Position numbers and translations under genes: made by a program | Shown here: positions 1 through 15,752 of the stretch, piece by piece | Layout: each line of letters starts with the position of its first letter | Numbering within the stretch: position 1 is the stretch's first letter | From: Myxococcota bacterium | Lineage (GTDB): Bacteria > Myxococcota > UBA4151 | Length of the DNA stretch: 16,713 nucleotides | Assembly (NCBI GenBank): GCA_036338695.1 | Contig: JAYZBQ010000036.1 | Coordinates: forward strand, 1-16,713 | Direction of reading: 5' to 3' | The notes under the pieces: generated by a model | What the model saw: the letters and a program-made list of their open reading frames with translations, nothing else | Database searches by the model: none | What the model was told of the DNA's origin: nothing

Positions 1-1736
1 GCGATCTGGAACAAAATACCCGTGGCTGCGGTGCCTTCGTGGTCCATGCCCTGACCGTGTAAGAAGTAGAGCACCGGGTAGTCCTCATTGGCGTATTCAG
101 GGTCATGGTAGCCTGGAGGCAGCACGTAGCTGTAGCTCTGCTCACGCCCGAGCGTCTGGCTCATGTACGTAGCTTGGCCGATGTAGCCGGGGTCACCCAC
201 GGGGCTGCGGCGGTAGCTCAAGTCGGCGCGCGGCCAAAAGCCTTGGGCGATGCTCATGATCAACTGAATGCGGCTGATCACCTGCGGCACCGTACCCACG
301 TGGTTGCCGTCGCCGGCTGCGATCAGATTCGGCGTGGGGTCAAGCGAGCCGTAGCGCATATAACTGTACTGCTTGAGCTTGTTGCCGGAGATGACGTTGG
401 GGTTGAAGCTCGAACCCTCGGCAGCGAGTTCGTCAAAGTCGTGAAACTCTTGGGTCGCCTCTTTGCCCAAGCGCGCTTGCAGCCTTGCCCACAAGCGGTT
501 CGAGGTAATCGCCGTATTGAGGAAGTCCCGGACCCCCGCGTCCATGTAGATGGTCAGGCGCTCGAGTTGCTCGTCGCTGATGCTCTCGATCATCGAGCCC
601 GGGTCATTCTTACGCGTGTTCCGCCGCCCTGGGCTCTCATCGTAGGCGTCGTTGCCTTCACCCAAGTCACCGGTGCCTTCGACGCCGTCAAGACCGTAGT
701 CGTCGAAGGGCTCACCATCGTCCCATTCCCAGTTGCCTTCCAAGCCGGCGGGGTTGTTGAACATATCAAAGTCATCGCCATTAGGGTCGGGGTTGGTGAC
801 TGGGTCGTAGCCAGGCTCATCCGCATTGGCTAAGCCGTCTGGTCCCACATCGCTGTAGCGCTCGTAACCGTTGACCACGATTGGCTCGGCATAATCGCGC
901 CGACCGTTTCGATTAAGGTCCACCGCCAGCAAAATACCGACCGGCTGCGTGCGCGGGGTGTCGGGCAGAATCCGTCCAAGCTCAGCCTCGGGCGTACCGT
1001 CGGGGTCGTCGTGGCGACCATCGCAATAGGTGATGACGGGGTACTCGCCGCGCGGGTTGTATTCGGCGTTGTAGACGTTTTCAAAGACGAGCGGGTTGGC
1101 GCAGCGCTCTTCCGCCGGTTGCGACCACCAAGCCTTGGTGATCCCCGGAGCCGCCCAGGGCAATTCCTCGTTAGGTGGGTTAAACGCATTGCCCATGCCT
1201 TTGATGATATCATGAAAACTATCCATCAGGCGCTGTCGGTTGAAGCTACCGCCACGACCGCCGTCCGGACCACGCCACCAGTTGTTGTAATCCGAGACCG
1301 ACTCATAAATCGGCGCTGCGCCGTCCGGGTAGGCGGTCTCTGGCGCTACATTGGATTCGGGCAGGACCGCTGCGTTGGGCTGATCGGTATACAGGCCACA
1401 GAAGGCTTCGACGTTATCAAGGTCATTGCCTTGCGCCATCAACGCTTCTAGGCGCTCAAGGCTGCAGAATCCGCCTAACCAGCCCCGTTCGACCATGCGC
1501 GAAAAACTGCTCAGATCGACCAGAGGGCCGCCCATAATTCCGATAAAATCGAACTTTTCCGGGTATTTTAAGCCGAACATCGCCGAAGCGCCGCCGCCCA
1601 TACTCACGCCCGTGACGGCTCGCCAGGTGTAGCGCCGGGTCGGCTCTGGCTCTGGCTCTGGCTCGCTCGAACAGCCGGTCAGGCCGCCCATGAGCAGCCC
1701 GACTAGGACACCGGCGGCGAGGTTTTTCCTTTGCAC
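1..1736 (-). CDS. Lipoprotein with esterase-type alpha/beta-hydrolase motifs in permuted order and Asp/Gly-rich insert (3' end outside window, >=578 aa)
   Basis: Manually translated open frame from GTG at 1736 to the window edge: MQRKNLAAGVLVGLLMGGLTGC (lipobox LTG-C22), EPEPEPEP linker, RAVTGVSMGGGASAMFGLKYPEKFDFIGIMGG (Ser45, nt 1602-1604), LTIYMDAGVRD (Asp404), GDGNHVG (His479), SQTLGREQSYSYVLPPGY...YPVLYFLHGQG (res ~528-563). Start codon inferred from the signal peptide; an in-frame ATG at 1796 overlaps the rpmG start and is less likely. Confidence 0.88.
   Translation of the reverse strand, partial: MQRKNLAAGVLVGLLMGGLTGCSSEPEPEPEPTRRYTWRAVTGVSMGGGASAMFGLKYPEKFDFIGIMGGPLVDLSSFSRMVERGWLGGFCSLERLEALMAQGNDLDNVEAFCGLYTDQPNAAVLPESNVAPETAYPDGAAPIYESVSDYNNWWRGPDGGRGGSFNRQRLMDSFHDIIKGMGNAFNPPNEELPWAAPGITKAWWSQPAEERCANPLVFENVYNAEYNPRGEYPVITYCDGRHDDPDGTPEAELGRILPDTPRTQPVGILLAVDLNRNGRRDYAEPIVVNGYERYSDVGPDGLANADEPGYDPVTNPDPNGDDFDMFNNPAGLEGNWEWDDGEPFDDYGLDGVEGTGDLGEGNDAYDESPGRRNTRKNDPGSMIESISDEQLERLTIYMDAGVRDFLNTAITSNRLWARLQARLGKEATQEFHDFDELAAEGSSFNPNVISGNKLKQYSYMRYGSLDPTPNLIAAGDGNHVGTVPQVISRIQLIMSIAQGFWPRADLSYRRSPVGDPGYIGQATYMSQTLGREQSYSYVLPPGYHDPEYANEDYPVLYFLHGQGMDHEGTAATGILFQI
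1642..1664 (-). repeat. In-frame hexamer microsatellite (GGCTCT x ~3.8 on + strand) encoding the (EP)4 linker
   Basis: ggctct ggctct ggctct ggctc; translates to EPEPEPEP two residues after the predicted lipidated Cys. Confidence 0.85.
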
Positions 1737-1759
1737 ACAGCCCGAAGCGCTGATACCCG
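1731..1759 (+). promoter_or_regulatory. Putative sigma70 promoter for rpmG
   Basis: TTGCAC (1731-1736), 17 nt, TACCCG (1754-1759) preceded by TG (extended -10 geometry), then a GC-rich discriminator-like tract. The -10 is imperfect. Confidence 0.4.
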
Positions 1760-1794
1760 CCGCTCCCGCTTTCAAAGAATATTGAGGTTTCGTC

Positions 1795-1950
1795 ATGCGT
1801 GAACTCATCAAACTCGTCTCCACCGCCGGCACGGGCTACTACTACACCACCGACAAGAAGCGTGCACAGGGCGTTGGGAAACTTGAAAAGAAGAAGTACG
1901 ACCCGGTGGTCCGCAAGCACGTGCTCTTCAAAGAAGCGAAGATCAAATAG
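1795..1950 (+). CDS. rpmG: 50S ribosomal protein L33, zinc-independent (no Cys) type, 51 aa
   Basis: [51 protein letters not shown], with the L33 signature IKLVS.AGTG..YTT.K...[24 protein letters not shown] Shine-Dalgarno 7 nt upstream. Below the ORF-track size cutoff. Confidence 0.97.
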
Positions 1951-2083: not shown

Positions 2084-3181
2084 ATGGCTGATTTCACGAT
2101 GGGTGTTGAAGAGGAATTCTTTATCCTCGACCCGGAGAGCCGGGCGCTGGCGCCTGGCTATATGGACATGGTCGCTGCTGCCGCGATGGACCCGGAAAGC
2201 ATCGAGCTTAAAGAGGAACTGCACACCTCCGTCGTCGAGGTCGGTACCGGGGTTTGTGAGCACATCGATCAAGCTCGCCTCGAGGTCGCCGCCAATCGGC
2301 GCGCCGCCTCGGCGGTGGCCGAGAAGGTGGGGCTTCGGATCGGCGCCGTCTCAACGCACCCTTTTAGCCGCTGGGAAGATCAGGGGATCACGCAAGGACC
2401 GTATCAGACCCTGACGGACGGGCTGCAAGATACGCTGCGCGCCAACTTGATCTGCGGGATGCATGTCCACGTTGGCGTCGACGATCCGGACGAGCGCGTG
2501 GCGGTGGCGAATCAAGCGCGCTACTTCCTGCCGCATTTGCTGGCGCTGAGCTGCTCGTCGCCGTTTTGGCAGGGGCGCGACACCGGCCTCGCCTCGCACC
2601 GAGCGGAGCTTTTTAAGCGCTTACCCCGGACGGGCGTGCCCAGCCGTTTTCGCTCGTGGCGGGAGTATCAAGACTTTATCGACACCTTGGTTGAGCAAGA
2701 GTGCATCGACAGCGGCCGACGCTTGTGGTGGGATCTACGCTGCTCGGTGACGTACCCGACCATCGAGTTTCGCATCTGCGACCTGCCGATGACGGTCAAC
2801 GAGACGATCTGGATCTCGGCTTTGATCCAGTCGCTGGTCGCGCGCCTGACCGAGCTGCACCGTAAGAACTGGGCTTGGCGCCGCTACCCGACCTCCTTCA
2901 TCCAGGAGAACAAGTGGCGGGCGCTGCGCTACGGCGTCTCGGGAACGATGATCGACTGGGGACGTCGTCATCAGAAGCCCTTTACGGAGCTGATCGATGA
3001 GCTGATCGAGTTCGTGGACCCAGCGGCGCGACGGCTCGGCTGTCTCCATGAGGTGCATGGGATCCGCAAGATCCTCGAGCACGGCTGCGGCGCCGATCGA
3101 CAGCGCAAGGCGTACGCAGAGCGGGGTGGGATGGCCGGCTTGGTCGACTACATCGTTGAGCAGACGGTCGCAGGCACTTGA
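2084..3181 (+). CDS. ybdK: YbdK-family carboxylate-amine ligase (glutamate--cysteine ligase family 2, GCS2)
   Basis: Motifs FTMGVEEEF, EELHTSVVEVGT, STHPFS, CGMHVHVG, LALSCSSPFWQGRDTGLASHR, WWDLR, TIEFRICD, ENKWRALRYG. AGGAG RBS upstream. Physiological substrate uncertain. Confidence 0.93.
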   Translation: MADFTMGVEEEFFILDPESRALAPGYMDMVAAAAMDPESIELKEELHTSVVEVGTGVCEHIDQARLEVAANRRAASAVAEKVGLRIGAVSTHPFSRWEDQGITQGPYQTLTDGLQDTLRANLICGMHVHVGVDDPDERVAVANQARYFLPHLLALSCSSPFWQGRDTGLASHRAELFKRLPRTGVPSRFRSWREYQDFIDTLVEQECIDSGRRLWWDLRCSVTYPTIEFRICDLPMTVNETIWISALIQSLVARLTELHRKNWAWRRYPTSFIQENKWRALRYGVSGTMIDWGRRHQKPFTELIDELIEFVDPAARRLGCLHEVHGIRKILEHGCGADRQRKAYAERGGMAGLVDYIVEQTVAGT

Positions 3182-3608: not shown

Positions 3609-3684
3609 TGGTAGGTCGTACAGGATTCGAACCTGTGACCATCGGATTAAAAGTCCGGTGCTCTACCAACTGAGCTAACGACCC
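3609..3684 (-). tRNA. tRNA-Lys (anticodon TTT)
   Basis: GGGTCGTTAGCTCAGTTGGTAGAGCACCGGACTTTTAATCCGATGGTCACAGGTTCGAATCCTGTACGACCTACCA; 76 nt cloverleaf, anticodon loop CT-TTT-AA, GGTTCGAAT T-arm, encoded CCA. Confidence 0.97.
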
Positions 3685-3805: not shown

Positions 3806-3880
3806 GGCCCGTTCGTCTAGCGGTTAGGACACTGGCCTTTCACGCCGGTAACACGGGTTCGAACCCCGTACGGGTCACCA
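3806..3880 (+). tRNA. tRNA-Glu (anticodon TTC)
   Basis: GGCCCGTTCGTCTAGCGGTTAGGACACTGGCCTTTCACGCCGGTAACACGGGTTCGAACCCCGTACGGGTCACCA; 75 nt, anticodon arm CTGGC-CT-TTC-AC-GCCGG, encoded CCA. Confidence 0.97.
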
Positions 3881-5642: not shown

Positions 5643-6296
5643 ATGGTGATGTGGGCCTGGTTGCTGCTGTCCTTATCGGAGGCTCCGAGCGAGTTTCTTA
5701 GGGCTTGGTCTGCCAGCGATTTTGCCGCGGCTTGCCGCTACCTCGACGCCGTTGACAAACCGCTGATCGACGCGCAGTGGCGCGCGCTCGCCGTCAGCGC
5801 ACGGATGCGCTGTGGCAAGGATGCGCTCGCTCAAGGGCGATGGCTGGAGGCTCGGGCGCACCAGCGCGCCTGCGCCGAGTTGAATAGCTCACCTGAGCGC
5901 TGCGTTGAACTCGGGGAGATGATTCAAGGCTGGGAGGCGCTCATGGCGGCACGACAAGGCACGCTCCGTTCCGCTGTCGAGAAGGCGACGCAGGTCCCGA
6001 CCGAGCGCTGGCCCTCGGCGCTACCGGTCGAGCTCTTGCGCATGGGCGGTGATGCGCTGCGCAAGCGACAGGTCGAAGAAGCGCAGGCGACGGTGACGCT
6101 GCTTGAGGCGCGGGCGCCAGACACCTTTGGCTTAGCCGAGCTACGCAGCGCGTTGTGGTGGGCGACGCAAGGGACCGTTGTGGCCTTTCGGATTGCGCTG
6201 GTAGGGTTCATGTTGCTGCTGGCGTTGACCCTTCGTTCCTTGCTACGGACGCGGCGCCGAGCCAAAGTGTTGCTTGGCGCGGAGATGCAGTCGTGA
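5643..6296 (+). CDS. Hypothetical membrane-anchored helical protein, 217 aa
   Basis: Starts 6 nt after the recJ stop. Short hydrophobic N-terminus, helical body with 4 Cys, C-terminal TM (VVAFRIALVGFMLLLALTL) followed by basic RSLLRTRRRAK. Stop overlaps the next start (GTGA). Confidence 0.7.
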   Translation: MVMWAWLLLSLSEAPSEFLRAWSASDFAAACRYLDAVDKPLIDAQWRALAVSARMRCGKDALAQGRWLEARAHQRACAELNSSPERCVELGEMIQGWEALMAARQGTLRSAVEKATQVPTERWPSALPVELLRMGGDALRKRQVEEAQATVTLLEARAPDTFGLAELRSALWWATQGTVVAFRIALVGFMLLLALTLRSLLRTRRRAKVLLGAEMQS

Positions 6297-6841
6297 ACGC
6301 AGCGATGCTCAGCATGGTCGTGACGAGTTTGGTGCTCGGTTCCACACAGGGGCGCTTGTTCCTCAACAACGTCCCGATCGATGGTGTTCGGGGTCAGCAG
6401 TTTACCAACGCCACGGTGCGTATCGATGACCAGGGGCGTGTCTTCATCGACGCCCCGGACTACGAGGTGGCGCCGCCTGCCGAGACGGTTCGGCTCAAGC
6501 CTGCCCGCCTTGCGCCCGGGGAGGGCGCCATGGTGATCTTCCAGAGCCAGGCGCACGGCAAGACAGAGATCAACGTCGAGGTCACGGTCAACGGGGTCAA
6601 GGTGGCTGATGAGGTGGACCCGATGCAGTCGGTTCACGACCTCATGGCGCACCTCAAAGCCGGCTCCAATCAAGTCGAGGTCAAGCTCGGTCGTAACGGC
6701 GGTGCCGGCGCGATGGAGGTCGTGATCGGCCTTGGTGGAATCCGCGACAGCCGCATCGAGCTCACCGATACCTTGGTCTCGGAGAAGGTCGATTTGCCGC
6801 GTAACGGCATGAAGGTCTTCGCTCTCGAGCTCACCAAGTGA
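6293..6841 (+). CDS. Secreted beta-rich hypothetical protein (~182 aa) directly upstream of tgl
   Basis: Start reassigned from 6155 to GTG 6293 (GTGA overlap), which gives a signal-like N-terminus. Beta-rich sequence LFLNNVPIDGVRGQQFTNATVRIDDQGRVFIDAPDYEV ... VEVTVNGVKV ... LKAGSNQVEV. Resembles, from memory only, the gene preceding tgl in myxobacteria. Confidence 0.8.
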   Translation: MNAAMLSMVVTSLVLGSTQGRLFLNNVPIDGVRGQQFTNATVRIDDQGRVFIDAPDYEVAPPAETVRLKPARLAPGEGAMVIFQSQAHGKTEINVEVTVNGVKVADEVDPMQSVHDLMAHLKAGSNQVEVKLGRNGGAGAMEVVIGLGGIRDSRIELTDTLVSEKVDLPRNGMKVFALELTK

Positions 6842-7650: not shown

Positions 7651-8362
7651 CACGCAGGAGGCGATCCGGGCGGTCGTCCTGGGGCGTGTTCCTTATGGCG
7701 ATCACGACCTGATCCTACCGGTTTTGAGCGCAGATGTCGGTCGATTCAGCGTCTACGCTCGCCGGCCTCGCAGCAAATCGAAGGGCTGGCACGCGCTGCT
7801 TGTGCCAGGGAACACCCTCGATTTGAGGCTCTCGGCGCGGCGGCGCGGAGAGCTCTTTACGTTGAGTCAAGTGGACTTGGTGGCGGATCGAAGCGGGGCG
7901 ATGAGCGACCCGCTTGCGTTGGCGCGGGCGGCTTATCTTCTCGAGCTGGTCAGCGTCTCGACCCGAGATGGGATCGTTGCGCCCTCACTGGCGCACGCGC
8001 TCGAGTGCGCGTTGGACGCGCTCGGGGAGCCTCAGACCAGTCGCTGGATGGAGCTTCAGACCCTGCGCCACCTAGGGGTGGAGCCGGATCCAGACGCCTG
8101 CAGCCGCTGCGGCGCGAGCCTCAGTGAGGGCGCTGCGCTGGACCCGCACGGTCAAGGTCTCAACTGCCGCACCTGTGCGCCCCGTGGTCGCCACTACAGC
8201 CGCCCGGTGCTCGAGCGCCTGCGGGATCTCGCTGAGACCGTCGTACCGCTCGGCGGTCACAGCGACCATGATCTCGGCGTCCTGCTCGGTCGGGCGCTGC
8301 GGCTTCAGGTCGGCGTTTTGAAGTCGGCTGCGGTGGCGGCGGCCTTGCGATCGAGCCGCTAG
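7637..8362 (+). CDS. recO: DNA repair protein RecO (zinc-finger type)
   Basis: Start reassigned to GTG 7637 (TTG 7634 possible). AVVLGRVPYGDHDLILPVLSADVGRFSVYAR is the RecO OB-fold start; also AAYLLELV and the CSRC...CRTC zinc finger. Confidence 0.9.
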   Translation: MAQTDTQEAIRAVVLGRVPYGDHDLILPVLSADVGRFSVYARRPRSKSKGWHALLVPGNTLDLRLSARRRGELFTLSQVDLVADRSGAMSDPLALARAAYLLELVSVSTRDGIVAPSLAHALECALDALGEPQTSRWMELQTLRHLGVEPDPDACSRCGASLSEGAALDPHGQGLNCRTCAPRGRHYSRPVLERLRDLAETVVPLGGHSDHDLGVLLGRALRLQVGVLKSAAVAAALRSSR

Positions 8363-9138
8363 CGGCCGCGAACCTGCTGGCGGGGCGTCTTCATCGCTTC
8401 CAGTCGGAACATATACCACTGCTGACCATAGCCGGTCATGTTCATTCGCTTCCCGTTGCGGACGGCGTCGAGGTTGCGCGCCAGGTTGTCGTCCTTTTTG
8501 TCCATGGCGTCGTGCCCACGATTGAGCACCTCGAGGGCGTCGGCGCGACGGTCCTCGGATTTCCGACCATCTTTCGCGTTGAGCAAGCACCAAGCGTAGC
8601 AGGCGTAGAGTAGACCCTGCTTCTTCTTATTAAAGCGGATGCACTCGTCAAATGCGTCTCGCATGGCGCTGAAGTTGCCCTCTTTGTACAGCAAGACGCC
8701 GAGCATCGCCCGCGTGGTCCACTGACGCACAAACCCGGTTTTGAGATACGGTTTAGCCTCGGTGTAGCGCTCGGACATGAACAACAGGTTACCGATCTGC
8801 GCGTCGAGCTGCGAGCGCACGCCCCACTGCCACTGACCGATGTCATAGCCTTTCCGGAGCTCGGCGATCGACTGGTCGATCGCTCGGCTGATCGACTGCT
8901 TGGCGGCGCGCGGGTTGCGCGCTTGTCCGCGGCTCTGTCGCTCCGCCGCCGTCATGATCTGCCCCACGCGGGCGCTGATCACTTCGACCTTCTTGATCGA
9001 GCGTCGCAGGAGGATGAAGTAGCCGCCGAGGAGGACCAGCAGCGCGGGGATGATGCCGTAGGTCCAACCACCCAAGCCAACCCCCGCCAGGATGCCGATG
9101 AGCGTCGCTGCGCCTGTCGCGATGAGAAAGTTGTACAC
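8359..9138 (-). CDS. Hypothetical membrane protein with two N-terminal TM helices and TPR-like helical domain (~259 aa)
   Basis: Start reassigned to GTG 9138 (MYNFLIATG...), with GAGG upstream. Two hydrophobic segments, then TPR-like AQIGNLLF..., AMLGVLLYKEGNF..., LYACYAWCLL. Stop overlaps the recO stop (CTAG). Confidence 0.82.
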   Translation of the reverse strand: MYNFLIATGAATLIGILAGVGLGGWTYGIIPALLVLLGGYFILLRRSIKKVEVISARVGQIMTAAERQSRGQARNPRAAKQSISRAIDQSIAELRKGYDIGQWQWGVRSQLDAQIGNLLFMSERYTEAKPYLKTGFVRQWTTRAMLGVLLYKEGNFSAMRDAFDECIRFNKKKQGLLYACYAWCLLNAKDGRKSEDRRADALEVLNRGHDAMDKKDDNLARNLDAVRNGKRMNMTGYGQQWYMFRLEAMKTPRQQVRGR

Positions 9139-9166
9139 GTTGGTTCTCGCCCTCAATTTCAGCGGA

Positions 9167-9195
9167 GCCTTAGAGCCGTAGCGGCGAGCGTTCAA
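9167..9195 (-). promoter_or_regulatory. Putative sigma70 promoter for the TPR-like membrane protein
   Basis: Minus strand TTGAAC (9195-9190), 17 nt, TAAGGC (9172-9167). The ORF track's TTG 'start' at 9195 coincides with this -35. Confidence 0.45.
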
Positions 9196-9286: not shown

Positions 9287-12200
9287 GTGTCCGTGCTCGA
9301 GTTGCCGCGCTCCATCGGAGATTGGACTGTTCATCGCCGCCTAGGATCGGGCGGTATGGGTGTGGTCTTCGAGGTGAGCCGAGGCGACGGCCCACGCCGC
9401 GCCCTCAAGCTCATGAACATCGTCGACACCGAGAGTAAGGTCCGCTTTGAGCGCGAGTTTCGTGCGCTGAAGCGGCTCAAGCATGACAACGTGGTCGAGG
9501 TGTTCGAGGCGGGGCAACATGAGGGGCGTCCGTACTTTACGATGCAGCTGGTCGACGGGGTGCCGCTCGACGTCTTCGTGGGCGCTGCCTCGGGGGGCGC
9601 GGATCAAGCCACGCAAGAGAGCCCACGCGAACTCAACGAGTTTAGCTTGGTGCACGACCGCCCCGACGAGTTCGGCGTCTGGGGCGAGCAGGCTCCAGCC
9701 GAGCAAGTCGAGCCGCTCGCCGAGGTCGAGCAGGCGCTGATCAACGCGCCGGAGCGCCTCAAGCGTGTGCAGAAGGCTTTTGTGCAGATCCTCCGAGCGC
9801 TTGCGCACATCCACGATCACCGGATCATTCACCGTGACCTCAAGCCCGCCAACGTCATGGTCACGAGCGACGGTGACGTCCTCTTGATGGACTTTGGTAT
9901 TGCGGTGGACAGCGAAGAGGATCACGCCGTGGTCGACACCGGGCAGCTGGTGGGGACCTTTGCCTACATGAGCCCAGAGCAGCTGCGCGCCACGGATACG
10001 GACCTCCGCAGCGACCTTTACGCCCTCGGGGTGATGCTGTTTGAGCTCCTGTCGGGGCGGCGGCCATTTGAAGCCGACTCCCCGGCGGCTGCCATCTACC
10101 AGCACGTGTTTCAGCTGCCCCCTGACCTGGGTACCTTGAACCCCGGCGCGCCGGATGAGCTGGTCAAGTTGACGATGCAGCTGCTGAGCAAGGCGCGCGG
10201 CGATCGCCCCGCCTCGGCGTGGGATGTGCTGTTTCGTTTTGGGGAGGAGCCCAATCGACTTCGGGCGATCAATGTGTTTCGCCCAGACCTCATCGGCCGG
10301 GCTGACGAACTCAAGACTCTAACTGGTGAGCTTGAGCTGGTCAGCCAGCGTCAGTTCCGGGCAGCTCATTTGGTGATCGGTCCGGCGGGTGTCGGTAAGT
10401 CCCGTTTACTCGAGGAGCTGTGGGAGCGCGCGCGCGGCCACGGGTTCCGCATCGTTCGTTTGAGCGCGCCTGAGCCGCTTGAAGCCCCCTACAGTTACCT
10501 CAACCCGCTCCTCGAGCTGGTCCTCGAGATCGCCCGAGAGCAACCCCTGCTCGGGCGGCGGCTCCTGCGCGACGACGCCGCCGTGGTGGCACGCATCGCC
10601 CCGCGCCTGACGGAGCTCGACCTGCTCGAGATCACCCAAGCCGAGGCGCTGCCACCAACCGAGGAGCGCCGCCGCGCCAAGCAGGTTTTGTGGCGCGTGA
10701 TCCATCGGCTGAGCCGGCAAGAGCCTCTCATGTTCATCTGCGATGACCTTGAGAAGTCGGATCTGTTGTCCTTGGACGTCTTGCATCACGTCTCGGATCA
10801 GCTCGCCAGCGCCGCAGCGGGCGGTGAGCCGGACCTGAAACCCGGTAGCTTGATGTTGGTGGGGGCGTGGCGAGAGGGCGAGCGCGCCGACCTCCTGGCG
10901 CAGCAACAGAGCGTCCAACGGATCACGCTGGGTCCGTTCGATGACGACGAGTTACGCCAGCTGGTCACAGCGTGTCTTGGCAGCGCGCCCGGTAACACGG
11001 TGATGCAGCACATGCGCGAGAGCACCCAAGGCGTCCCGTTGGTTTGCATCGAGATGCTCCGTGCGCTGGCGGAGCACTATGCGCTTGAGCGGCACGGTGT
11101 CGGCACCTGGGAGCTCAAAGACGACCTCGAGTCGACCTCGGTGTTTGGTGGGGACGGACAAGATAAGCCGCTCGATGGCTTGGTCGAGAAGCTCTTCGAG
11201 AGCTTACCAGAGGCGGCAGGGCAGGTGCTCGGCGCGGCCGCGCTCAACCGGCGTCGGTTCCGGCTCTCGCAGATCGGGTCGCTGCTCGAGGCGGTCGGGA
11301 TCGACCTGTCGGAGGATCAACGGCTCGACGCGATCGATCATTTGGTGCGGCATGGCATGTTGGTGGAAGCCATGCGCCAGCGCGATGGCTACCACGTGGC
11401 CTACAGCAACTTGGCTCGCCACGCTCGGCGACGCTTGAGCGATGAACAGTATCGGCTGGGTCACGCTCACCTCGCTACGGCGTGCGCTCAGGAGCGAGAG
11501 CTCAACATCGATGAGCTCTTATTCCATGCGATCCGTGGGCATCAAGATGAGCTGACGCTTGAATATCTACCGGATCAAGCTCTGCTTTTCGCTGAGCTCG
11601 GTGACGCCGGCGCGGCGGTCTCGGCGTATGAGGCGTGGCTCGATGTGTACACGCGCCGCACCGAACCAGCCCCCGTGGAGGCTGCGTCGGGTTATTCGCT
11701 GGCGTTGCGCAACGTAGGGCGCCCGGATGAGGCTGAGCGCGTGGTCGTTGAGGCGCTCAAGCGTGACGGTTTATCGCTCGAACAGGACACCGAGCTCCAG
11801 ATGCGCTACATGAGCCTGCTGGGCGATCGCGGCGAGGGTGAGGAGGCGCTGCGTCGCGCCGAGGTGCTCGATGCGCGCCTTGAGCGCATTGGGGCGCTGT
11901 TAGCTGCTCGCCTTCAACAGGCGCGCACGAGCATCCTGCAGCGATTCGGTGACGCCGAGCAGGCGCGCCAAGCGGCGCATGACTCGGTGCGCCGGATGGA
12001 CGAGATGGAGGTCGAGCGCGGGCGCGCCAAAGCCTTGCAGTTGGTCGCGCTCACCGAGGAGCGGTGCGGTAACCTCAAGCAAGCGCTCGTCTCTTTTGAT
12101 GAGGCGATCGCGGCGGCTCGAGCGGTCGGTGATGAGTTTAATCTCATGGTCTCCTTGGTCAACGTCACGGGGACGCGGTTGCGGTCAGGTGATCTCGATG

Positions 12201-12766
12201 GCGCCGAGCGGATCGGCCTCGAGGCGCTTGAGACGGCTCAGCGCCTGAACGTCTCTCGAGCCGAGGTGATCGCTCGCGCCAACCTCGAGTGGATTGCGCT
12301 CGAGCGCGCCCCGTCGGCGGCGCTGGTGGATCGGCTCGAGCGAATGCTTCAGGTGCTTTCGGAGAGCGGGAACGGTTTCGCCGAGCCCGAGGTTCGGTTC
12401 CATCGGGCGCGCTGTTTGACGATCCTCGGTCGGCGAGAGGAGGCGCTTGCGGACGCAGAGATTGGCGCTGAACTTGCGAAGCGCAGCCGCCTTGAGCGGG
12501 ATCATTTGCTGTGCAAGGCGCTCGAGGCGCGCTTGATCGGCGATCTCGAGGGGTTCGACGAAATTATTGGTGGTCTTGAAGAGCTTAAAGCCAGCGATGA
12601 AGCCTTGTTGGCGCGCGAGTTCTTTGGTCAAGCTCTTGAAGAATCGGGTGATCCTGAGCGTGCACGGGTTGTGTGGATGCAGGCTCTAGAATCCGCCGTG
12701 GATCAAGGGTACGGAACAGCGGCCGGGCGTCTTCGTATTTTACTCGATGAGGTGGGGGGGCAATGA
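9287..12766 (+). CDS. Hanks-type Ser/Thr kinase fused to STAND-class (AAA_16-like) NTPase and C-terminal TPR-like repeats
   Basis: Kinase motifs LGSGGMGVV, ALK, HRDLKPANV, DFG, GTFAYMSPE, DLYALG. NTPase LIGRADEL, Walker A GPAGVGKS (10379-10402), Walker B LMFICDD, GxP (TQGVPL). Helical TPR-like C-terminal third; no TM seen. Confidence 0.92.
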   Translation: MSVLELPRSIGDWTVHRRLGSGGMGVVFEVSRGDGPRRALKLMNIVDTESKVRFEREFRALKRLKHDNVVEVFEAGQHEGRPYFTMQLVDGVPLDVFVGAASGGADQATQESPRELNEFSLVHDRPDEFGVWGEQAPAEQVEPLAEVEQALINAPERLKRVQKAFVQILRALAHIHDHRIIHRDLKPANVMVTSDGDVLLMDFGIAVDSEEDHAVVDTGQLVGTFAYMSPEQLRATDTDLRSDLYALGVMLFELLSGRRPFEADSPAAAIYQHVFQLPPDLGTLNPGAPDELVKLTMQLLSKARGDRPASAWDVLFRFGEEPNRLRAINVFRPDLIGRADELKTLTGELELVSQRQFRAAHLVIGPAGVGKSRLLEELWERARGHGFRIVRLSAPEPLEAPYSYLNPLLELVLEIAREQPLLGRRLLRDDAAVVARIAPRLTELDLLEITQAEALPPTEERRRAKQVLWRVIHRLSRQEPLMFICDDLEKSDLLSLDVLHHVSDQLASAAAGGEPDLKPGSLMLVGAWREGERADLLAQQQSVQRITLGPFDDDELRQLVTACLGSAPGNTVMQHMRESTQGVPLVCIEMLRALAEHYALERHGVGTWELKDDLESTSVFGGDGQDKPLDGLVEKLFESLPEAAGQVLGAAALNRRRFRLSQIGSLLEAVGIDLSEDQRLDAIDHLVRHGMLVEAMRQRDGYHVAYSNLARHARRRLSDEQYRLGHAHLATACAQERELNIDELLFHAIRGHQDELTLEYLPDQALLFAELGDAGAAVSAYEAWLDVYTRRTEPAPVEAASGYSLALRNVGRPDEAERVVVEALKRDGLSLEQDTELQMRYMSLLGDRGEGEEALRRAEVLDARLERIGALLAARLQQARTSILQRFGDAEQARQAAHDSVRRMDEMEVERGRAKALQLVALTEERCGNLKQALVSFDEAIAAARAVGDEFNLMVSLVNVTGTRLRSGDLDGAERIGLEALETAQRLNVSRAEVIARANLEWIALERAPSAALVDRLERMLQVLSESGNGFAEPEVRFHRARCLTILGRREEALADAEIGAELAKRSRLERDHLLCKALEARLIGDLEGFDEIIGGLEELKASDEALLAREFFGQALEESGDPERARVVWMQALESAVDQGYGTAAGRLRILLDEVGGQ

Positions 12767-14592
12767 TTCAGTCGCGCAGTTGCCCAAGTTGTTTGCGGCG
12801 CGTGGAGGTCAGCCAGTTCAAGCTCGGCGACCGCGTGCGATGCCCCTATTGCAAGTCCGAGTTTCAGATTCAGCCGCAGATGCGCGGCGCGCCGGTCGCC
12901 AACGGCGACGCAGACCAGCGCCATCGCCAGACCAACCCCCGACCACGGCTTCCCAAGACAGGGAGCATGGAGCGTCTTCAGGTCGAGGGTTACGAGCGCT
13001 TCGAAGAGGTCGGTAAAGGGGCGATGGGGAAGGTCTACAAAGCCTACCAGTCCAAGCTGCGCCGAAAAGTGGCGCTGAAGGTGCTGGCCTTGGAGCACGC
13101 CGACAAGTCCGGTTTCGTGGACCGGTTCCGTCGCGAGGCGGCGACGGGCGCACGCATCACGCACCGCAACGTCGTGCGGGTGTACGACATCCTCACCGGC
13201 AAGTCGTACGACCGGGAGGGCGTCAGCACCGAAGTGCACGTGATCTCCATGGAGTTCGTCGACGGACCGCACCTACGCCAGCTGAACCAGAGCGAGGTGC
13301 GTGGGAACCTGCCCAAGGCGCTCGATTATTTCCGGCAGATCTGCTCCGGGGTCGCCGCCGCACACGAGCAGGGTGTCGTGCATCGTGACCTCAAGCCTGA
13401 GAACATCATGCTCGATCGTGAGACCAACGTCCTCAAGGTCGCTGACTTCGGCCTTGCGTACTTCGTCGATCGAGATGAGCGAGACGCCGTCTGGGACACC
13501 AAAACGCGCATGACCATGGGGACGGTGGCTTACATGCCGCCGGAACAAGGGCGTGACGCCAAGCGAGTGGTCGAGTCGGGTGACGTCTACTCCTTGGGCA
13601 GAATGCTGTATGAGATGATCACGGGGTCGCTCCCGGACGGCTCGTTCTCGGCTGCCTCGACGATCGTGCGTGAGCTCCCGGAGAGCATGGATCGCTTGAT
13701 CGAGAAGTGCCTGGAGCCCAAGCCTGAGCGCCGCTATCAGAGCGCCGGCGAGCTGCTCGAAGCGTTCGACGCCTGCACCGCAGAGCTCGAGAAGCCCGAG
13801 GACGATGAGCCGGTGGCTGAAGAGGTGCCGGAGGTTCCACAAGATGAGCCGGAGATCCCTCAGCGACGCGTCGAGGCGGTCCAGCAGGTAGCCCCCGTGT
13901 TGCGGCCGCCGGCCGGCCCTATCCCCTTGCTGCAGCGTTATCCGCTGTGGGCTGTGGTGGGTCTTCCGTTGCTCGCAGGGCTCGTCTTAGGGGCTTGGCT
14001 CTTTGGCGCCAGCGCGCCCGAGGCAACGGAAGGGGTCTGGCTGCTCGATGGAGCCCACGAGCGCAGCATTGCGCCGCATACCGTGCTCGACGGTTACCCA
14101 GAGGCGACCGGCGGCTTATGGCGACGTAAAGAGCGTTATCTGGACCACCCGGGCGCCGCAGGTGCCGCCACGGTCGCACAGTCGAGCCCTGCGCTGGCGC
14201 TCGGTGATGAGCTCGGTGTCGGCGCGCTGGAGATCGAGCGGCGCTTGGAGTGGGAGGCCGAGGGCGACGCGGCGTTGCGGGCCACCAAGCTGGGCTCGGT
14301 GGAGCGTTGGGTGGCGGTCGGCTTTGAGACCGAAACCGGCCGGAGCTGGGTTGGGATCGACGCCGCAGGCGACTGTTATGTCAGCGAGGCGGGGGTCAGG
14401 CGCCCCTGCGGCATCGGGCGGCAGGTGGTGTCACCGGCTCGAATTCAACTTCGCGAAGTCAACGGGAAGGTGCGCGTCACGATCGACAACACGGACAACC
14501 TCCCTGAGTCACTCAATGCGCCCACAGGGGCCGCCCGGTTGCTGGTTTTGTGTCAGAATCAGTTCTGCCGATTTGACCCGAAGAGACGCTAG
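12763..14592 (+). CDS. Membrane Ser/Thr kinase with N-terminal zinc ribbon and C-terminal extracytoplasmic beta domain
   Basis: CPSC...CPYC N-terminus; VGKGAMGKVY, VALK, HRDLKPENI, DFG, GTVAYMPPE, DVYSLG; acidic/Pro linker; TM (LWAVVGLPLLAGLVLGAWLFGA). ATGA overlap with the upstream kinase. Confidence 0.92.
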   Translation: MIQSRSCPSCLRRVEVSQFKLGDRVRCPYCKSEFQIQPQMRGAPVANGDADQRHRQTNPRPRLPKTGSMERLQVEGYERFEEVGKGAMGKVYKAYQSKLRRKVALKVLALEHADKSGFVDRFRREAATGARITHRNVVRVYDILTGKSYDREGVSTEVHVISMEFVDGPHLRQLNQSEVRGNLPKALDYFRQICSGVAAAHEQGVVHRDLKPENIMLDRETNVLKVADFGLAYFVDRDERDAVWDTKTRMTMGTVAYMPPEQGRDAKRVVESGDVYSLGRMLYEMITGSLPDGSFSAASTIVRELPESMDRLIEKCLEPKPERRYQSAGELLEAFDACTAELEKPEDDEPVAEEVPEVPQDEPEIPQRRVEAVQQVAPVLRPPAGPIPLLQRYPLWAVVGLPLLAGLVLGAWLFGASAPEATEGVWLLDGAHERSIAPHTVLDGYPEATGGLWRRKERYLDHPGAAGAATVAQSSPALALGDELGVGALEIERRLEWEAEGDAALRATKLGSVERWVAVGFETETGRSWVGIDAAGDCYVSEAGVRRPCGIGRQVVSPARIQLREVNGKVRVTIDNTDNLPESLNAPTGAARLLVLCQNQFCRFDPKRR

Positions 14593-14693
14593 GTTTTTCG
14601 GGCAGACGGTGAATGCTCGGCAGGGTTTGAGCGTCGGCGGTTAGGATTGCCGGCCGCGTACAACTGTGCCACACGCGGCCCCAGGAGGTCGCT

Positions 14694-15752
14694 ATGGGTT
14701 ACAAATCCCTCCTCATTGCGCTGGGCGTTGGTCTCGCCGCCCCGTCGGCGCTCGCCACCCCGCTCGATTCGCTCTTTAGCGATGAGTCGGTTGAGGTCCG
14801 CGCCGATGAGCGCCTGTTCACCCTGATGCTGCTGATGAATGGAATGGGCTGGTCCGAGGCTGCGGACTATGGTCCCGCGCCGCTCAAGACGCCGCAGTAC
14901 AAAGGGCTTCGTAAGGATCTAATCGAGAAGCTACGCACCTACCGTGAGCGCTACCTTCCAAACGCAGTCTTGAATCGTGCGCAGCGGTTCGTGACAGAGC
15001 ACCCCGGCTCGCTCAAAGACTACATTGAGGCGTGCTTGCACATGGCGCGCGCCCCCGACTTCACGTTTCAAAAGACGCTCCCCAAGACGCTCACGAAGCT
15101 CAAAGGGCTCGACGAGCTCTTGCGCGCCGCATGGAAGGGCGCCCGGGTTGGTGTGCTGATGGGGCGTTACCAAGAGGGTTTGGTCGAGGGGCAGCAGAAG
15201 TTGCTGTCTCAGATCGATCAGCGAACCAAGCCGTTGGTGCGGATGCTCAAGGCGAAGGCCGAGGTGGCTAAGGCGAGCGCCCCAGCCGCTAGCGATGGGG
15301 ACGATATGGGTGACCTGTTCGGCGGCGATGATGACGACTCGGGCGATGAGGGCACGGCGACGGCTGACGACGCGACCGCTGAGCTTGAATCGGTGGCGGT
15401 GACGCTCGCCCCGCTGTGGGTGCACGGCGAGGCGCTCTCCGTTCAATACGCCGATCGGTTCGAGCTCGTGTTTGGCGGCGCGCGGGGTGACGGCACTGCG
15501 GTAGCACACGCTGTGGCCTTGGTCCGTCTGCGAGCCGCTGCCGGGCTTGCGCGTAAACCGGTCACTGAGGCGCAGCAGCGCGCTGCCTGGGGTCTGGTTG
15601 CCGCCGCCACCGGTCGGCAGGGTCCGGACACGCTGGCGCCCTATCCCGCTTGCACGCAGGCGATCGCCGAATGGCGCCAGACCAAAGCGCCCCTGACCGA
15701 GGGAAGCCAAGCGGCGGACTTGCTGAAAACCTGCGAAGCGAAAGGGAAGTGA
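14694..15752 (+). CDS. Secreted hypothetical protein, 352 aa
   Basis: AGGAGG RBS; Sec signal MGYKSLLIALGVGLAAPSALA; helical body with an internal acidic low-complexity loop; ends 2 nt before guaB. Confidence 0.82.
   Translation: MGYKSLLIALGVGLAAPSALATPLDSLFSDESVEVRADERLFTLMLLMNGMGWSEAADYGPAPLKTPQYKGLRKDLIEKLRTYRERYLPNAVLNRAQRFVTEHPGSLKDYIEACLHMARAPDFTFQKTLPKTLTKLKGLDELLRAAWKGARVGVLMGRYQEGLVEGQQKLLSQIDQRTKPLVRMLKAKAEVAKASAPAASDGDDMGDLFGGDDDDSGDEGTATADDATAELESVAVTLAPLWVHGEALSVQYADRFELVFGGARGDGTAVAHAVALVRLRAAAGLARKPVTEAQQRAAWGLVAAATGRQGPDTLAPYPACTQAIAEWRQTKAPLTEGSQAADLLKTCEAKGK

What the first reader, a model, noticed from the sequence alone, without database searches (positions are those of the whole stretch)
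1..1736. Circularly permuted esterase-type alpha/beta-hydrolase lipoprotein, missed by the ORF track
Seen: the nucleophile elbow GVSMGG (Ser45) lies only 23 residues after the lipidated Cys. It is followed by KYPEKFDFIGIMGG, then much later IYMDAGVRD (Asp404) and GDGNH (His479). Only after these come SQTLGREQSYSYVLPPGY and YPVLYFLHG (res ~528-561). Established: in the Fes/XynZ-type 'putative esterase' family (Pfam PF00756), the S..LG....VYLPPGY...YPVLYLLHG block (beta1-beta3, oxyanion region) precedes GxSxG. Natural permutation of this fold is known from type II PHB depolymerase catalytic domains, but those motifs read differently. Inference: this is an independently permuted, membrane-tethered serine hydrolase with an intact Ser-Asp-His triad, possibly an uncharacterised family with an unknown (polymer or prey-derived) substrate.
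Basis: partly seen in the sequence, partly recalled or inferred. Interest (0 to 1): 0.78.

Follow-up and report, generated by a model that had tools for sequence, protein, structure and literature searches.

The report
Circularly permuted Myxococcota esterase lipoprotein
The window's first gene, cut off by the contig end, encodes a predicted lipoprotein whose two halves match the ordinary "putative esterase" family in swapped order; hundreds of Myxococcota homologs share this natural circular permutation, which likely arose separately from the only well-known case (type-2 PHB depolymerases), and its substrate is unknown.

Summary
The minus-strand ORF 3..1832 runs off the contig start. It has every quoted motif at the quoted place.

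- **Swapped order:** Pfam PF00756 hits it in two swapped pieces (ORF 66-104 = profile 111-150; ORF 558-605 = profile 1-45).
- **Exact junction:** a 62-sequence family profile matches the canonical CE1 feruloyl esterase BT_4077 at E 9e-20. Profile 539-676 aligns to chain 23-142 and profile 55-86 to chain 145-176.
- **No second domain:** homologs end 38-120 residues after the HG motif, and 0 of 118 have a later GxSxG.
- **Conserved catalytic residues:** Ser, Asp, His and His-Gly are kept in every homolog that spans them.
- **Structure:** an AF2 model (pLDDT 91.8) is colinear only with the permuted P. funiculosum PHB depolymerase (Z 16.5). Canonical hydrolases match one half or the other.
- **Not a type-2 PHA depolymerase:** these are permuted PF10503 proteins and score about 1 bit against the family profile, so the permutation is probably independent.
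- **Insert:** a conserved 325-residue insert at the lid position is confidently predicted but matches no solved fold.
- **Distribution:** the family occurs in 99 of 301 sampled genomes of the phylum.

Substrate and triad geometry remain untested.

The parts
3..1796 (-). Partial coding sequence, about the first 88% of the gene for the permuted esterase lipoprotein. The 3' end (about 84 codons, judged from the same-genus homolog P0001) is lost at the contig start. The ATG at 1796 is the likely start because it matches the start of P0001.
   Evidence: (P0001 residues 2-597 align to C36 1790-3 at 86.6% identity)
1671..1736 (-). Predicted lipoprotein signal peptide: an RK n-region, the hydrophobic stretch LAAGVLVGLLMGG, and the lipobox LTGC with Cys54 at 1673-1671.
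   Evidence: Sequence inspection. A lipobox-like motif occurs in the first 80 residues of 100 of 120 homologs by a permissive regex. No dedicated signal-peptide predictor was available.
1638..1670 (-). Acidic Pro/Glu-rich tether SSEPEPEPEPT between the lipidated Cys and the first core strand.
   Evidence: Sequence. Also present in P0001-P0003. Model confidence is low to medium in this stretch.
1521..1637 (-). Strand beta5, the nucleophile elbow GVSMGG (Ser77, 1604-1602), helix alphaC and strand beta6. This stretch matches PF00756 profile positions 111-150.
   Evidence: Ser aligns with the nucleophile position of BT_4077, where the S150A entry reads GLAMGG. Ser is present in 117 of 120 homologs; the other 3 are gaps in fragments.
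558..1532 (-). A 325-residue insert at the canonical lid position, between beta6 and beta7. It has four invariant Cys and Asp/Asn/Gly-rich loops that resemble Ca-binding loops (for example DLNRNGRRDYAE). It belongs to no Pfam family and matches no solved fold.
   Evidence: 0 Pfam families in the middle piece; A2, 66 sequences; pLDDT 89.4, pTM 0.88; Foldseek best E 2.3; 0 of 48,161 chains with Z>=2.
183..557 (-). Strand beta7 with the acid in MDAGVRD (Asp436, 527-525), strand beta8 and the GDGNH loop (His511, 302-300), helix alphaF, and the linker that joins the old C-terminus to old strand beta1.
   Evidence: Secondary structure of the model. Asp is kept in 119 of 120 homologs and His in 119 of 120. 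This part plus the elbow superposes on the second half of canonical esterases, e.g. 1jt2 162-284 with 121 residues at rmsd 2.4.
3..182 (-). Start of the transposed N-terminal module: the beta1-beta2 hairpin (SYVLPPGY), strand beta3 YPVLYFLHG with the oxyanion His592-Gly593 (59-54), and the beginning of helix alphaA. It matches PF00756 profile positions 1-45/46. Strand beta4 and helix alphaB lie beyond the contig end.
   Evidence: ORF 558-605 = profile 1-45; C36:15-161 = profile 1-46; alignment to BT_4077 23-142; model 527-671 on the first half of CE1 esterases, rmsd 2.0-2.5.

Best explanation
The minus-strand ORF at window 3-1796 is about the first 88% of a gene whose product matches the PF00756/CE1 esterase family in swapped order (nucleophile-elbow half first, beta1-beta4/oxyanion half last). 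It is predicted to fold into a single circularly permuted alpha/beta-hydrolase core that likely acts as a lipid-anchored Ser-His-Asp carboxylesterase.

Shown by the sequence and the searches:
- The motif order is GxSMGG, then DAGxxD, then GxGxH, then HG.
- Pfam and PDB matches are swapped, and the junction is exact. The family's C-terminus aligns up to residue 142 of the canonical esterase BT_4077, and its mature N-terminus aligns from residue 145.
- No second domain is present in full-length homologs.
- The four catalytic positions are strictly conserved.
- The family is found in about one third of the sampled genomes of the phylum.

Predicted from AlphaFold models of the same-genus homolog and of the window's own insert:
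- One compact core has Ser after beta5, Asp after beta7, His after beta8 and His-Gly after beta3.
- Its connectivity matches the P. funiculosum PHB depolymerase.
- A 325-residue insert at the lid position has no solved structural relative.

Inferred:
- The protein is exported and lipidated at Cys54, and it hangs on a Pro/Glu tether.
- Three disulfides (six invariant Cys) and Ca-binding-like loops stiffen the insert, which would form the substrate-binding cap.
- Ser77 attacks an ester carbonyl, with His511/Asp436 as the relay. The backbone amides after Ser77 and near His592-Gly593 would form the oxyanion hole.
- The permutation likely arose by tandem duplication of a CE1-like esterase gene followed by trimming of both ends. 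This would be separate from the event that produced type-2 PHA depolymerases.

The substrate is unknown. My best guess is an acylated glycan or another extracytoplasmic ester polymer.
For: Swapped order:
- PF00756 matches ORF 66-104 to profile 111-150 and ORF 558-605 to profile 1-45.
- In homologs the C-terminal piece reaches profile 114-116, while the N-terminal piece starts at 112-113.
- phmmer of P0001 against PDB aligns 544-620 to 7xrt 35-105 and 56-85 to 145-174.
- The A1 profile against PDB gives 7xrt_A E 9.4e-20, with profile 539-676 on chain 23-142 and profile 55-86 on chain 145-176.

No second domain:
- The closest homologs are 640-700 aa.
- The tail after HG is 38-120 aa (median 101.5) in 118 proteins, and 0 of 118 have a later GxSxG.
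- Longer forms carry non-esterase N-terminal extensions.

Conservation:
- Ser 117/120, Asp 119/120, His 119/120, His-Gly 118/120.
- Every exception is a gap or misalignment in one of four fragments.

Structure:
- The model has pLDDT 91.8 and pTM 0.89, and the catalytic residues sit at canonical strand ends.
- 2d80_A gives Z 16.5, rmsd 3.9, 247 aligned residues, model 55-667 colinear with chain 30-338. The next best is Z 9.0.
- The same result came from 48,161 representatives searched without Foldseek.
- Canonical hydrolases align either to model ~50-524 (their second half) or to ~527-671 (their first half) at rmsd 2.0-2.5.

Independence from type-2 PHA depolymerases:
- NF050059 (type 2) gives no hit on 5 members or on the own genome.
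- Three Myxococcota type-2 enzymes match PF10503 positions 5-89 with their C-terminal part.
- Two of the three score 0.9-1.0 bit against the A1 profile, and the third gave no hit.
- hhalign probability is 21%.
- G082, G208 and G179 carry both gene types.

Distribution:
- 491 hits in the protein search.
- 213 of 304 candidate stretches in genome contigs encode a relative.
- 99 of 301 genomes and 64 of 137 genera have a match.
Against: - The window's own 3' end is missing and was not recovered. The end of this particular gene is inferred from the same-genus homolog P0001, which is 86.6% identical and syntenic.
- Model coordinates are not exposed, so no Ser-His-Asp distance was measured. The triad rests on conservation, secondary-structure position and superposition ranges.
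- Pfam does not align the Asp/His segment.
- The models are predictions made without templates, and no experiment exists.
- The breakpoint is the same as in type-2 PHA depolymerases, and the best structural match is the permuted depolymerase 2d80. A single ancient permutation followed by strong divergence is therefore not excluded.
- Gene neighbourhoods give no clue to the substrate.
- The Ca-binding sites and disulfides are read from sequence patterns only.
Confidence: 0.85

Rival explanations
1. The family shares one ancient permutation event with type-2 extracellular PHA/PHB depolymerases. It would be a divergent polyester depolymerase, for example acting on prey or environmental PHB.
For: - The element order is identical: lipase box, Asp, His, oxyanion His. 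This is how passages of PMC2666664 define type-2 depolymerases.
- The only solved structure colinear with the model is the P. funiculosum PHB depolymerase, at Z 16.4-16.5.
- Model residue 55 aligns to chain 30. If the first ten residues are ungapped, Ser64 falls on Ser39, the residue mutated in entry 2d81 'S39A'.
- The type-1 depolymerase model NF050058 gives weak swapped hits, E 3e-5 to 5e-3.
Against: - The type-2 model NF050059 gives no hit.
- The A1 profile gives about 1 bit on two real Myxococcota type-2 enzymes and no hit on the third, against 73.6 bits on a canonical CE1 esterase.
- hhalign probability is 21% and covers the elbow only.
- Type-2 enzymes derive from PF10503; this family derives from PF00756.
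- The motifs differ: G[IL]SSGG and LHGC in type 2 against GVSMGG and LHGQG here.
- Identity to 2d80 is 15% at rmsd 3.9. Identity to the CE1 halves is 19-28% at rmsd 2.0-2.5.
- No PHB-binding domain or linker was seen.
- Three genomes carry both families.
Confidence: 0.1
2. A truncated first esterase domain is followed by a second, complete canonical domain beyond the contig edge, so there is no permutation.
For: The window's own 3' end is not available.
Against: - The same-genus homolog P0001 is colinear with the window to its first base and ends 84 residues later.
- 0 of 118 homologs have a GxSxG after the HG motif, and their tails are 38-120 residues.
- The N-terminal elbow, Asp and His are strictly conserved.
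- The model builds one core from both ends.
Confidence: 0.01
3. The protein keeps the permuted fold but is not a hydrolase of carboxylic esters. It could be an acyltransferase like the antigen-85 mycolyltransferases of the same Pfam family, or a peptidase or thioesterase.
For: - PF00756 includes acyltransferases and thioesterases. Antigen 85, MPT51, mycoloyltransferase A and S-formylglutathione hydrolases are among the structural and sequence matches.
- S9 peptidases match the second half at Z 7-8.5.
Against: - The best sequence matches are CE1 feruloyl/acetyl-xylan esterases.
- The peptidase matches are generic to the fold and of low identity.
- Nothing in the data favours a particular acceptor or thioester substrate.
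Confidence: 0.12
4. The swapped order is an assembly or gene-calling artefact of this contig.
For: The gene sits at a contig end of a 99-contig draft assembly.
Against: - The same order is found in 120 listed proteins from many sources and in 78 loci from independent assemblies, several on contigs of 1-7 Mb.
- Synteny with L007 (GCS2 ligase, RecJ) is intact.
Confidence: 0.005

Closest known systems
Canonical PF00756 'putative esterase' / CAZy CE1 feruloyl and acetyl-xylan esterases, e.g. Bacteroides thetaiotaomicron BT_4077 (7xrt) and the C. thermocellum XynZ esterase domain (1jjf/1jt2)
   Same: - These are the closest relatives by sequence. The family profile scores E 9.4e-20 on 7xrt, and PF00756 scores above its gathering cut-off.
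- They share the GxSMGG elbow, the LPPGY...YPVLYxLHG block, and an acid and His after beta7 and beta8.
- Both halves superpose at rmsd 2.0-2.5.
   Different: - The order of the two halves is swapped, with new termini between helix alphaB and strand beta5 (chain residues 142/145 of 7xrt).
- A 325-residue insert sits at the lid position.
- A lipoprotein signal is present.
- No NCBIfam naming model fits.
Type-2 catalytic domain of extracellular short-chain PHA/PHB depolymerases (NCBIfam NF050059), including the Penicillium funiculosum enzyme (2d80/2d81), the textbook circularly permuted alpha/beta hydrolase
   Same: - The chain connectivity and breakpoint are the same: strands beta1-4 moved to the C-terminus (passage of PMC3531081) and the oxyanion element lies C-terminal to the triad (passages of PMC2666664).
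- It is the best and only colinear structural match, at Z 16.5.
   Different: - No detectable sequence relation beyond the elbow.
- Type-2 enzymes are permuted PF10503 proteins, not PF00756.
- The motifs differ.
- Type-2 enzymes lack the 325-residue insert.
- The family here has no PHB-binding module.
Alpha/beta hydrolases with permuted or reversed peripheral strands beta1/beta2 (e.g. 3fle, 2z8x, 1lgy), as listed in the 2024 classification paper PMC11878206
   Same: Natural rewiring of the alpha/beta-hydrolase sheet (passages).
   Different: Those cases concern only the two edge strands. Here the whole beta1-beta4 module, with helices alphaA and alphaB and the oxyanion motif, is transposed.

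Membership tests
Pfam PF00756 (Esterase, 'putative esterase'; includes CE1 feruloyl esterases, esterase D, antigen 85) | Profile match above the curated gathering score | tested here: met
   45.8 bits against a cut-off of 22 for the window ORF, and 46.3 bits for P0001. The match is in two stretches.
Pfam PF00756 (Esterase) | Colinear domain order: beta1-3/HG oxyanion block, then the GxSxG elbow, then Asp, then His | tested here: not met
   The order is elbow (profile 111-150) first and profile 1-45 last. The same swapped order is seen against PDB members. The protein is a circular permutant of the family rather than a colinear member.
Pfam PF00756 (Esterase) | Catalytic Ser in GxSMGG, plus an acid, a His and the HG oxyanion motif | tested here: met
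   Ser 117/120, Asp 119/120, His 119/120, HG 118/120, with the exceptions being gaps in fragments. Their positions after beta5, beta7, beta8 and beta3 are seen in the model. Triad distances were not measured.
Type-2 extracellular dPHAscl (PHB) depolymerase, NCBIfam NF050059 | Profile match above the curated cut-off (280 bits) | tested here: not met
   No hit at E<=10 for 5 family members. No hit at E<=0.001 in the own genome. True members in the phylum score 352-371 bits.
Type-2 extracellular dPHAscl (PHB) depolymerase | Lipase box N-terminal, oxyanion element C-terminal to the triad (permuted connectivity) | tested here: met
   Motif order. The model is colinear with 2d80 at Z 16.5. The definition comes from passages of PMC2666664.
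Type-2 extracellular dPHAscl (PHB) depolymerase | Hydrolysis of PHB / presence of a polymer-binding module | not testable with these tools
   No Pfam domain other than PF00756 was found at E<=1, apart from a sub-threshold Hydrolase_4 hit (E 0.08-0.11) on the same elbow. Activity needs an assay.
Bacterial lipoprotein (signal peptidase II substrate) | N-terminal signal peptide ending in a lipobox [LVI][ASTVI][GAS]C | tested here: met
   RK n-region, hydrophobic core and LTGC at ORF 51-54. A lipobox-like motif occurs in 100 of 120 homologs by a permissive regex. No LipoP/SignalP-type predictor was run.
Circularly permuted protein (sequence-based definition: the N-terminal part is similar to the C-terminal part of a relative, and vice versa) | Both reciprocal similarities are significant against the same relative, with adjoining end points | tested here: met
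   7xrt_A: profile 539-676 aligns to chain 23-142 (stretch E 3.7e-14) and profile 55-86 aligns to chain 145-176 (stretch E 0.0016). The definition is quoted in passages of PMC13552848.

The most novel reading that the evidence does not exclude
The alpha/beta-hydrolase fold has been circularly permuted at the same alphaB/beta5 junction at least twice: once in PF10503 (type-2 PHB depolymerases) and once in PF00756. The second event founded a phylum-wide Myxococcota family of surface-tethered serine esterases. Their 325-residue, disulfide- and Ca-stabilised cap is a new fold that defines a new substrate specificity.
Probability: 0.55. Interest if true: 0.72.

Novelty: new variant of a known kind. 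Interest (0 to 1): 0.62.

Why it matters
- **Rare evidence quality.** Natural circular permutations backed by clear sequence evidence are rare. In the alpha/beta-hydrolase superfamily, one of the largest enzyme folds, the case usually cited is the type-2 PHB depolymerase.
- **A preferred rewiring site.** A second, apparently independent permutation at the same junction, with an exact seam against a solved canonical esterase, would show that this junction is a preferred place for rewiring. It would also give a clean natural model for the duplication-and-trimming route.
- **Annotation.** Colinear profile methods see only pieces of these proteins. Sources therefore label them 'hypothetical protein', 'putative esterase' or 'FrmB'.
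- **The insert.** It is a large, conserved, confidently predicted domain with no solved relative, placed where substrate specificity is usually set. The family is a good target for structure determination and for finding a new esterase activity in predatory or social Myxococcota.

Tried and rejected
- **Missing 3' end.** tblastn of P0001 against the whole assembly found only C36. An exact 50-base pattern from the window start found nothing in metagenome contigs. The gene end was not recovered.
- **Tandem-duplicate intermediates.** The 756-908 aa homologs have N-terminal extensions with no esterase match (9 scanned of about 30 long ones; 3 read). The 'longer' length class was not searched, and open frames up to 1238 aa seen were not examined.
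- **Permuted forms without the insert.** The 'shorter' search gave 22 hits, all fragments covering 8-54% of the query. None was found with this word-based search.
- **Identity of the insert.** No Pfam family in the middle piece. Foldseek against PDB gave a best E of 2.3. VIA-align against 48,161 chains gave none with Z>=2. The TSP3/EF-hand-like reading of the Asp-rich loops is by eye only.
- **Gene context.** I picked 30 of 78 loci, and my ORF picker found the target gene in 23 of them. I scanned 92 neighbouring proteins. ABC ATPase lies downstream in 5 of 23, EF-G upstream in 4 of 23, a TPR protein downstream in 3-4 of 23, and the rest are unrelated. In L007 the gene stands alone, between a divergent GCS2 ligase gene and a convergent gene. 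No substrate clue emerged.
- **NCBIfam.** Only hits far below the cut-offs.
- **ESM Atlas.** Only PF00756 'esterase' clusters.
- **Own-genome canonical PF00756-like proteins.** L002, L003 and L006 give no hit to the family profile. L003 is a 787-aa canonical-order hydrolase.
- **Earlier scan notes.** None.
- **Triad distances.** No model file is available to scripts, so they were not measured.
- **Literature.** Searches for a permuted PF00756/CE1 esterase returned only the PHB depolymerase case, engineered lipase permutants, CE4/SGNH cases and peripheral-strand permutations. Within that library I saw listings and the quoted passages only.
Full report
**1. What is in the window**

All six frames were listed with open ends. 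A 610-codon ORF lies on the minus strand at 3..1832 and has no stop before the window's first base. The window is the first 16,713 bases of contig C36 of a 99-contig, 3.36-Mb assembly (93.6% complete), so the contig end cuts the gene.

- lipobox LTGC at 51-54
- GVSMGG at 75-80 (Ser77)
- IYMDAGVRD at 428-436 (Asp436)
- GDGNH at 507-511 (His511)
- LPPGY at 571
- YPVLYFLHG at 585-593

The likely start is the ATG at 1796, which lines up with the start of the closest homolog. ATG 1808, GTG 1832 and GTG 1736 are in the same frame and remain possible.

**2. The rest of the gene**

tblastn of the closest full-length homolog against the whole assembly hit only C36. P0001 residues 2-597 align to bases 1790-3 at 86.6% identity. 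An exact 50-base pattern from the window start found nothing in metagenome contigs. The last ~84 codons of this organism's gene were therefore not recovered.

The end has to be read from relatives:
- P0001 is 681 aa. It is encoded at locus L007, and an identical protein is encoded in a same-genus genome, G010.
- L007 has the same neighbours as the window: a divergent GCS2-type ligase gene, then RecJ.
- After the point where the window stops, P0001 continues for 84 residues and ends.

**3. Is there a second domain?**

The protein search returned 491 hits, of which the best 120 were listed. Most are 630-715 aa and some are 720-908 aa. I aligned the 120:
- The tail after the conserved His of the HG motif is 38-120 residues (median 101.5) in the 118 proteins that span it.
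- None of the 118 has a GxSxG in that tail.
- The longer proteins are longer at the N-terminus. Nine of them were scanned, and only PF00756 was found, again with the elbow piece before the profile-1 piece. The three I read have non-esterase N-terminal regions.

**4. Swapped order at the sequence level**

Pfam:
- PF00756 scores 45.8 bits on the window ORF against a cut-off of 22.
- Scanned in pieces, ORF 66-104 matches profile 111-150 and ORF 558-605 matches profile 1-45. The 389-residue middle piece matches nothing.
- A six-frame search of the genome gave the same two pieces.
- In full-length homologs the C-terminal piece runs to profile 114-116 and the N-terminal piece starts at 112-113.

Solved structures:
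- P0001 aligns 544-620 to residues 35-105 of the B. thetaiotaomicron feruloyl esterase BT_4077 (7xrt), and 56-85 to its residues 145-174.
- A profile of 62 family members (A1) gives E 9.4e-20 on 7xrt. Profile 539-676 aligns to chain 23-142 and profile 55-86 to chain 145-176.
- The family's C-terminus and its mature N-terminus therefore abut within two residues on a canonical enzyme. This is the signature of a true circular permutation of one ancestral domain.
- The Ser of GVSMGG aligns with the position that reads Ala in the S150A entry 7xrv.

**5. Conservation**

In the 120 homologs:
- Ser is present in 117.
- The second Asp of DAGxxD is present in 119.
- The His of GxGxH is present in 119.
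- His-Gly is present in 118.
- Six Cys are present in 116-120.

Every exception is a gap, or in one case a misalignment, in one of four fragmentary proteins (P0024, P0025, P0052, P0084).

**6. Predicted structure**

AlphaFold2 on P0001 with alignment A1 gave pLDDT 91.8 and pTM 0.89. In the model:
- Ser64 follows strand 58-63 and precedes helix 65-76 (the nucleophile elbow).
- Asp423 follows strand 414-420.
- His498 lies between strand 476-481 and helix 502-518.
- His579-Gly580 follow strand 574-578.

These are the canonical sites after beta5, beta7, beta8 and beta3.

VIA-align on Foldseek's best 1000 chains:
- The P. funiculosum PHB depolymerase 2d80 is first, with Z 16.5, rmsd 3.9 and 247 of 318 residues. 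Model 55-667 is colinear with chain 30-338.
- The next best is Z 9.0.
- Canonical hydrolases align in one of two ways. Some align to model ~50-524 with their second half (1jt2 162-284, 121 residues, rmsd 2.4). Others align to model ~527-671 with their first half (6rzn_B 127-262, 109 residues, rmsd 2.0).

A Foldseek-independent pass over 48,161 representatives gave the same picture, and no other colinear match.

**7. Relation to the known permuted hydrolases**

From the literature (passages only):
- The ESTHER paper describes the P. funiculosum enzyme as having strands beta1-4 permuted to the C-terminus (PMC3531081).
- The PHA depolymerase database paper defines type-2 catalytic domains by an oxyanion element C-terminal to the triad, and lists the P. 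funiculosum enzyme among them (PMC2666664).

The connectivity here is therefore already known. I then tested whether the family belongs to that lineage:
- NCBIfam holds a type-2 model, NF050059. It gave no hit on five family members at E<=10 or on the own genome.
- A survey of 301 genomes of the phylum found true type-2 enzymes (352-371 bits) in three genomes, G082, G208 and G179. All three also carry the family studied here.
- The catalytic domains of those three enzymes match PF10503 positions 5-89 with their C-terminal part. Type-2 depolymerases are thus permuted PF10503 proteins.
- Against the A1 profile, with the same database size as the PDB search, two of the three score 0.9-1.0 bit (E ~ 8-9 x 10^2) and the third gave no hit. 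BT_4077 scores 73.6 bits.
- hhalign of A1 against the three gives 21% probability, over the elbow only.
- PF10503 does not hit the window protein at E<=1.

Two permuted families, each with its own canonical parent family, point to two separate events at equivalent positions. A single ancient event followed by strong divergence cannot be excluded. I put independence at roughly 0.65.

**8. The insert**

Between beta6 and beta7, the usual lid site (passage of PMC11878206), lie about 325 residues (window 558-1532).
- An alignment of the window segment with 65 locus-derived segments has 44% mean column identity (A2).
- It contains invariant Cys and Asp/Asn/Gly-rich loops such as D-x-N-x-N-G-x-x-D-x-x-E.
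- Its own AlphaFold model has pLDDT 89.4 and pTM 0.88 and is loop-rich.
- Foldseek found nothing better than E 2.3.
- VIA-align found no chain with Z>=2 among 48,161.

I read the loops as Ca-binding and the six Cys as three disulfides. Both readings are inference from sequence patterns.

**9. Distribution and context**

- In genome contigs, 213 of 304 candidate stretches encode a relative. The 78 loci kept are almost all titled Myxococcota, Myxococcales, Kofleriaceae, Haliangiales, Polyangia or 'Deltaproteobacteria' MAGs.
- In an even sample of the phylum, 99 of 301 genomes have a match at E<=1e-30. That is 81 of 255 high-quality genomes and 64 of 137 genera, and 4 of 5 genomes in the window's own family excluding G000. 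Several genomes carry 2-3 copies.
- Neighbours vary in the 23 loci examined and suggest no pathway.
- Source names are 'hypothetical protein', 'putative esterase' or 'S-formylglutathione hydrolase FrmB'.
- NCBIfam has no fitting model.

**10. Mechanism proposed**

- Shown: the motif order, the exact seam, conservation, and absence of a second domain.
- Predicted: a single permuted core with a cap.
- Inferred:
  - Sec export, lipidation at Cys54, and a Pro/Glu tether.
  - Ser77-His511-Asp436 catalysis, with the HG region and the residue after Ser forming the oxyanion hole.
  - Substrate selection by the Ca- and disulfide-stiffened insert.
  - Origin by tandem duplication of a CE1-like esterase gene and loss of both outer ends.

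The substrate is unknown. An acylated glycan or another extracytoplasmic ester is my best guess, because the nearest relatives are CE1 feruloyl and acetyl-xylan esterases. A polyester is a minority possibility.

**11. Novelty**

Five literature searches found no report of a permuted PF00756/CE1 esterase. They found only the PHB depolymerase case, engineered permutants, CE4/SGNH cases and peripheral-strand permutations. I saw listings and the quoted passages only, and most subscription journals are not in the library. I rate the finding as a new variant of a known kind: known connectivity, in a new parent family, with a new insert.

Noticed in passing
window 558-1532 (-): The 325-residue insert is confidently predicted (pLDDT 89.4) yet has no chain with Z>=2 among 48,161 PDB representatives. 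The tool's own notes say unmatched models usually reach a best Z of 7-8. Its loop-rich, Asp/Gly-rich nature may explain this. It could be a new Ca-binding cap fold.
   Followed up: partly
window 2084-3181 (+): A divergently transcribed GCS2-family carboxylate-amine ligase (PF04107, E 1.7e-58). The same gene is the neighbour in the same-genus locus L007.
   Followed up: partly
window 3609-3684 (-) and 3806-3880 (+): tRNA-Lys(ttt) and tRNA-Glu(ttc) are arranged divergently between the ligase gene and recJ.
   Followed up: no
window 9287-12766 (+) and 12763-14592 (+): Two adjacent Ser/Thr protein kinase genes whose ends overlap by 4 bases. The first is 1159 aa and has an AAA_16 ATPase domain after the kinase.
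   Followed up: no
window 5643-6296, 6155-6841, 8359-9195 (-), 14694-15752: Four ORFs of 217-352 aa with no Pfam family at E<=1e-5. Two of them overlap each other (5643-6296 and 6155-6841), so at least one may not be a gene.
   Followed up: no
G192:C5:9924-11246 and 13628-14950; G157:C62:11862-13172 and 14440-15750: Tandem or near-tandem copies of the permuted esterase gene occur in some genomes of the phylum. The two G192 copies have identical scores. Such pairs are the raw material for the duplication route to permutation.
   Followed up: no
L085, L086, L087 (G082, G208, G179): True type-2 PHA depolymerases (352-371 bits on NF050059) were found in only 3 of 301 sampled genomes of the phylum. 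Their C-terminal part matches the N-terminal part of PF10503, which shows the known permutation directly at the sequence level.
   Followed up: partly
L003 661-3024 (-) (G000:C44): A 787-aa predicted lipoprotein in the same genome has a canonical-order alpha/beta-hydrolase domain (LSLHG, then GHSMGG, then GTADD, then GAGHWW) flanked by large unassigned regions. It is not related to the permuted family by the A1 profile.
   Followed up: partly
P0024 (505 aa, on a 322-kb contig): A family member that stops before the C-terminal beta1-beta4 module although it is not at a contig end. It could be a frameshift, a pseudogene or a split gene.
   Followed up: no
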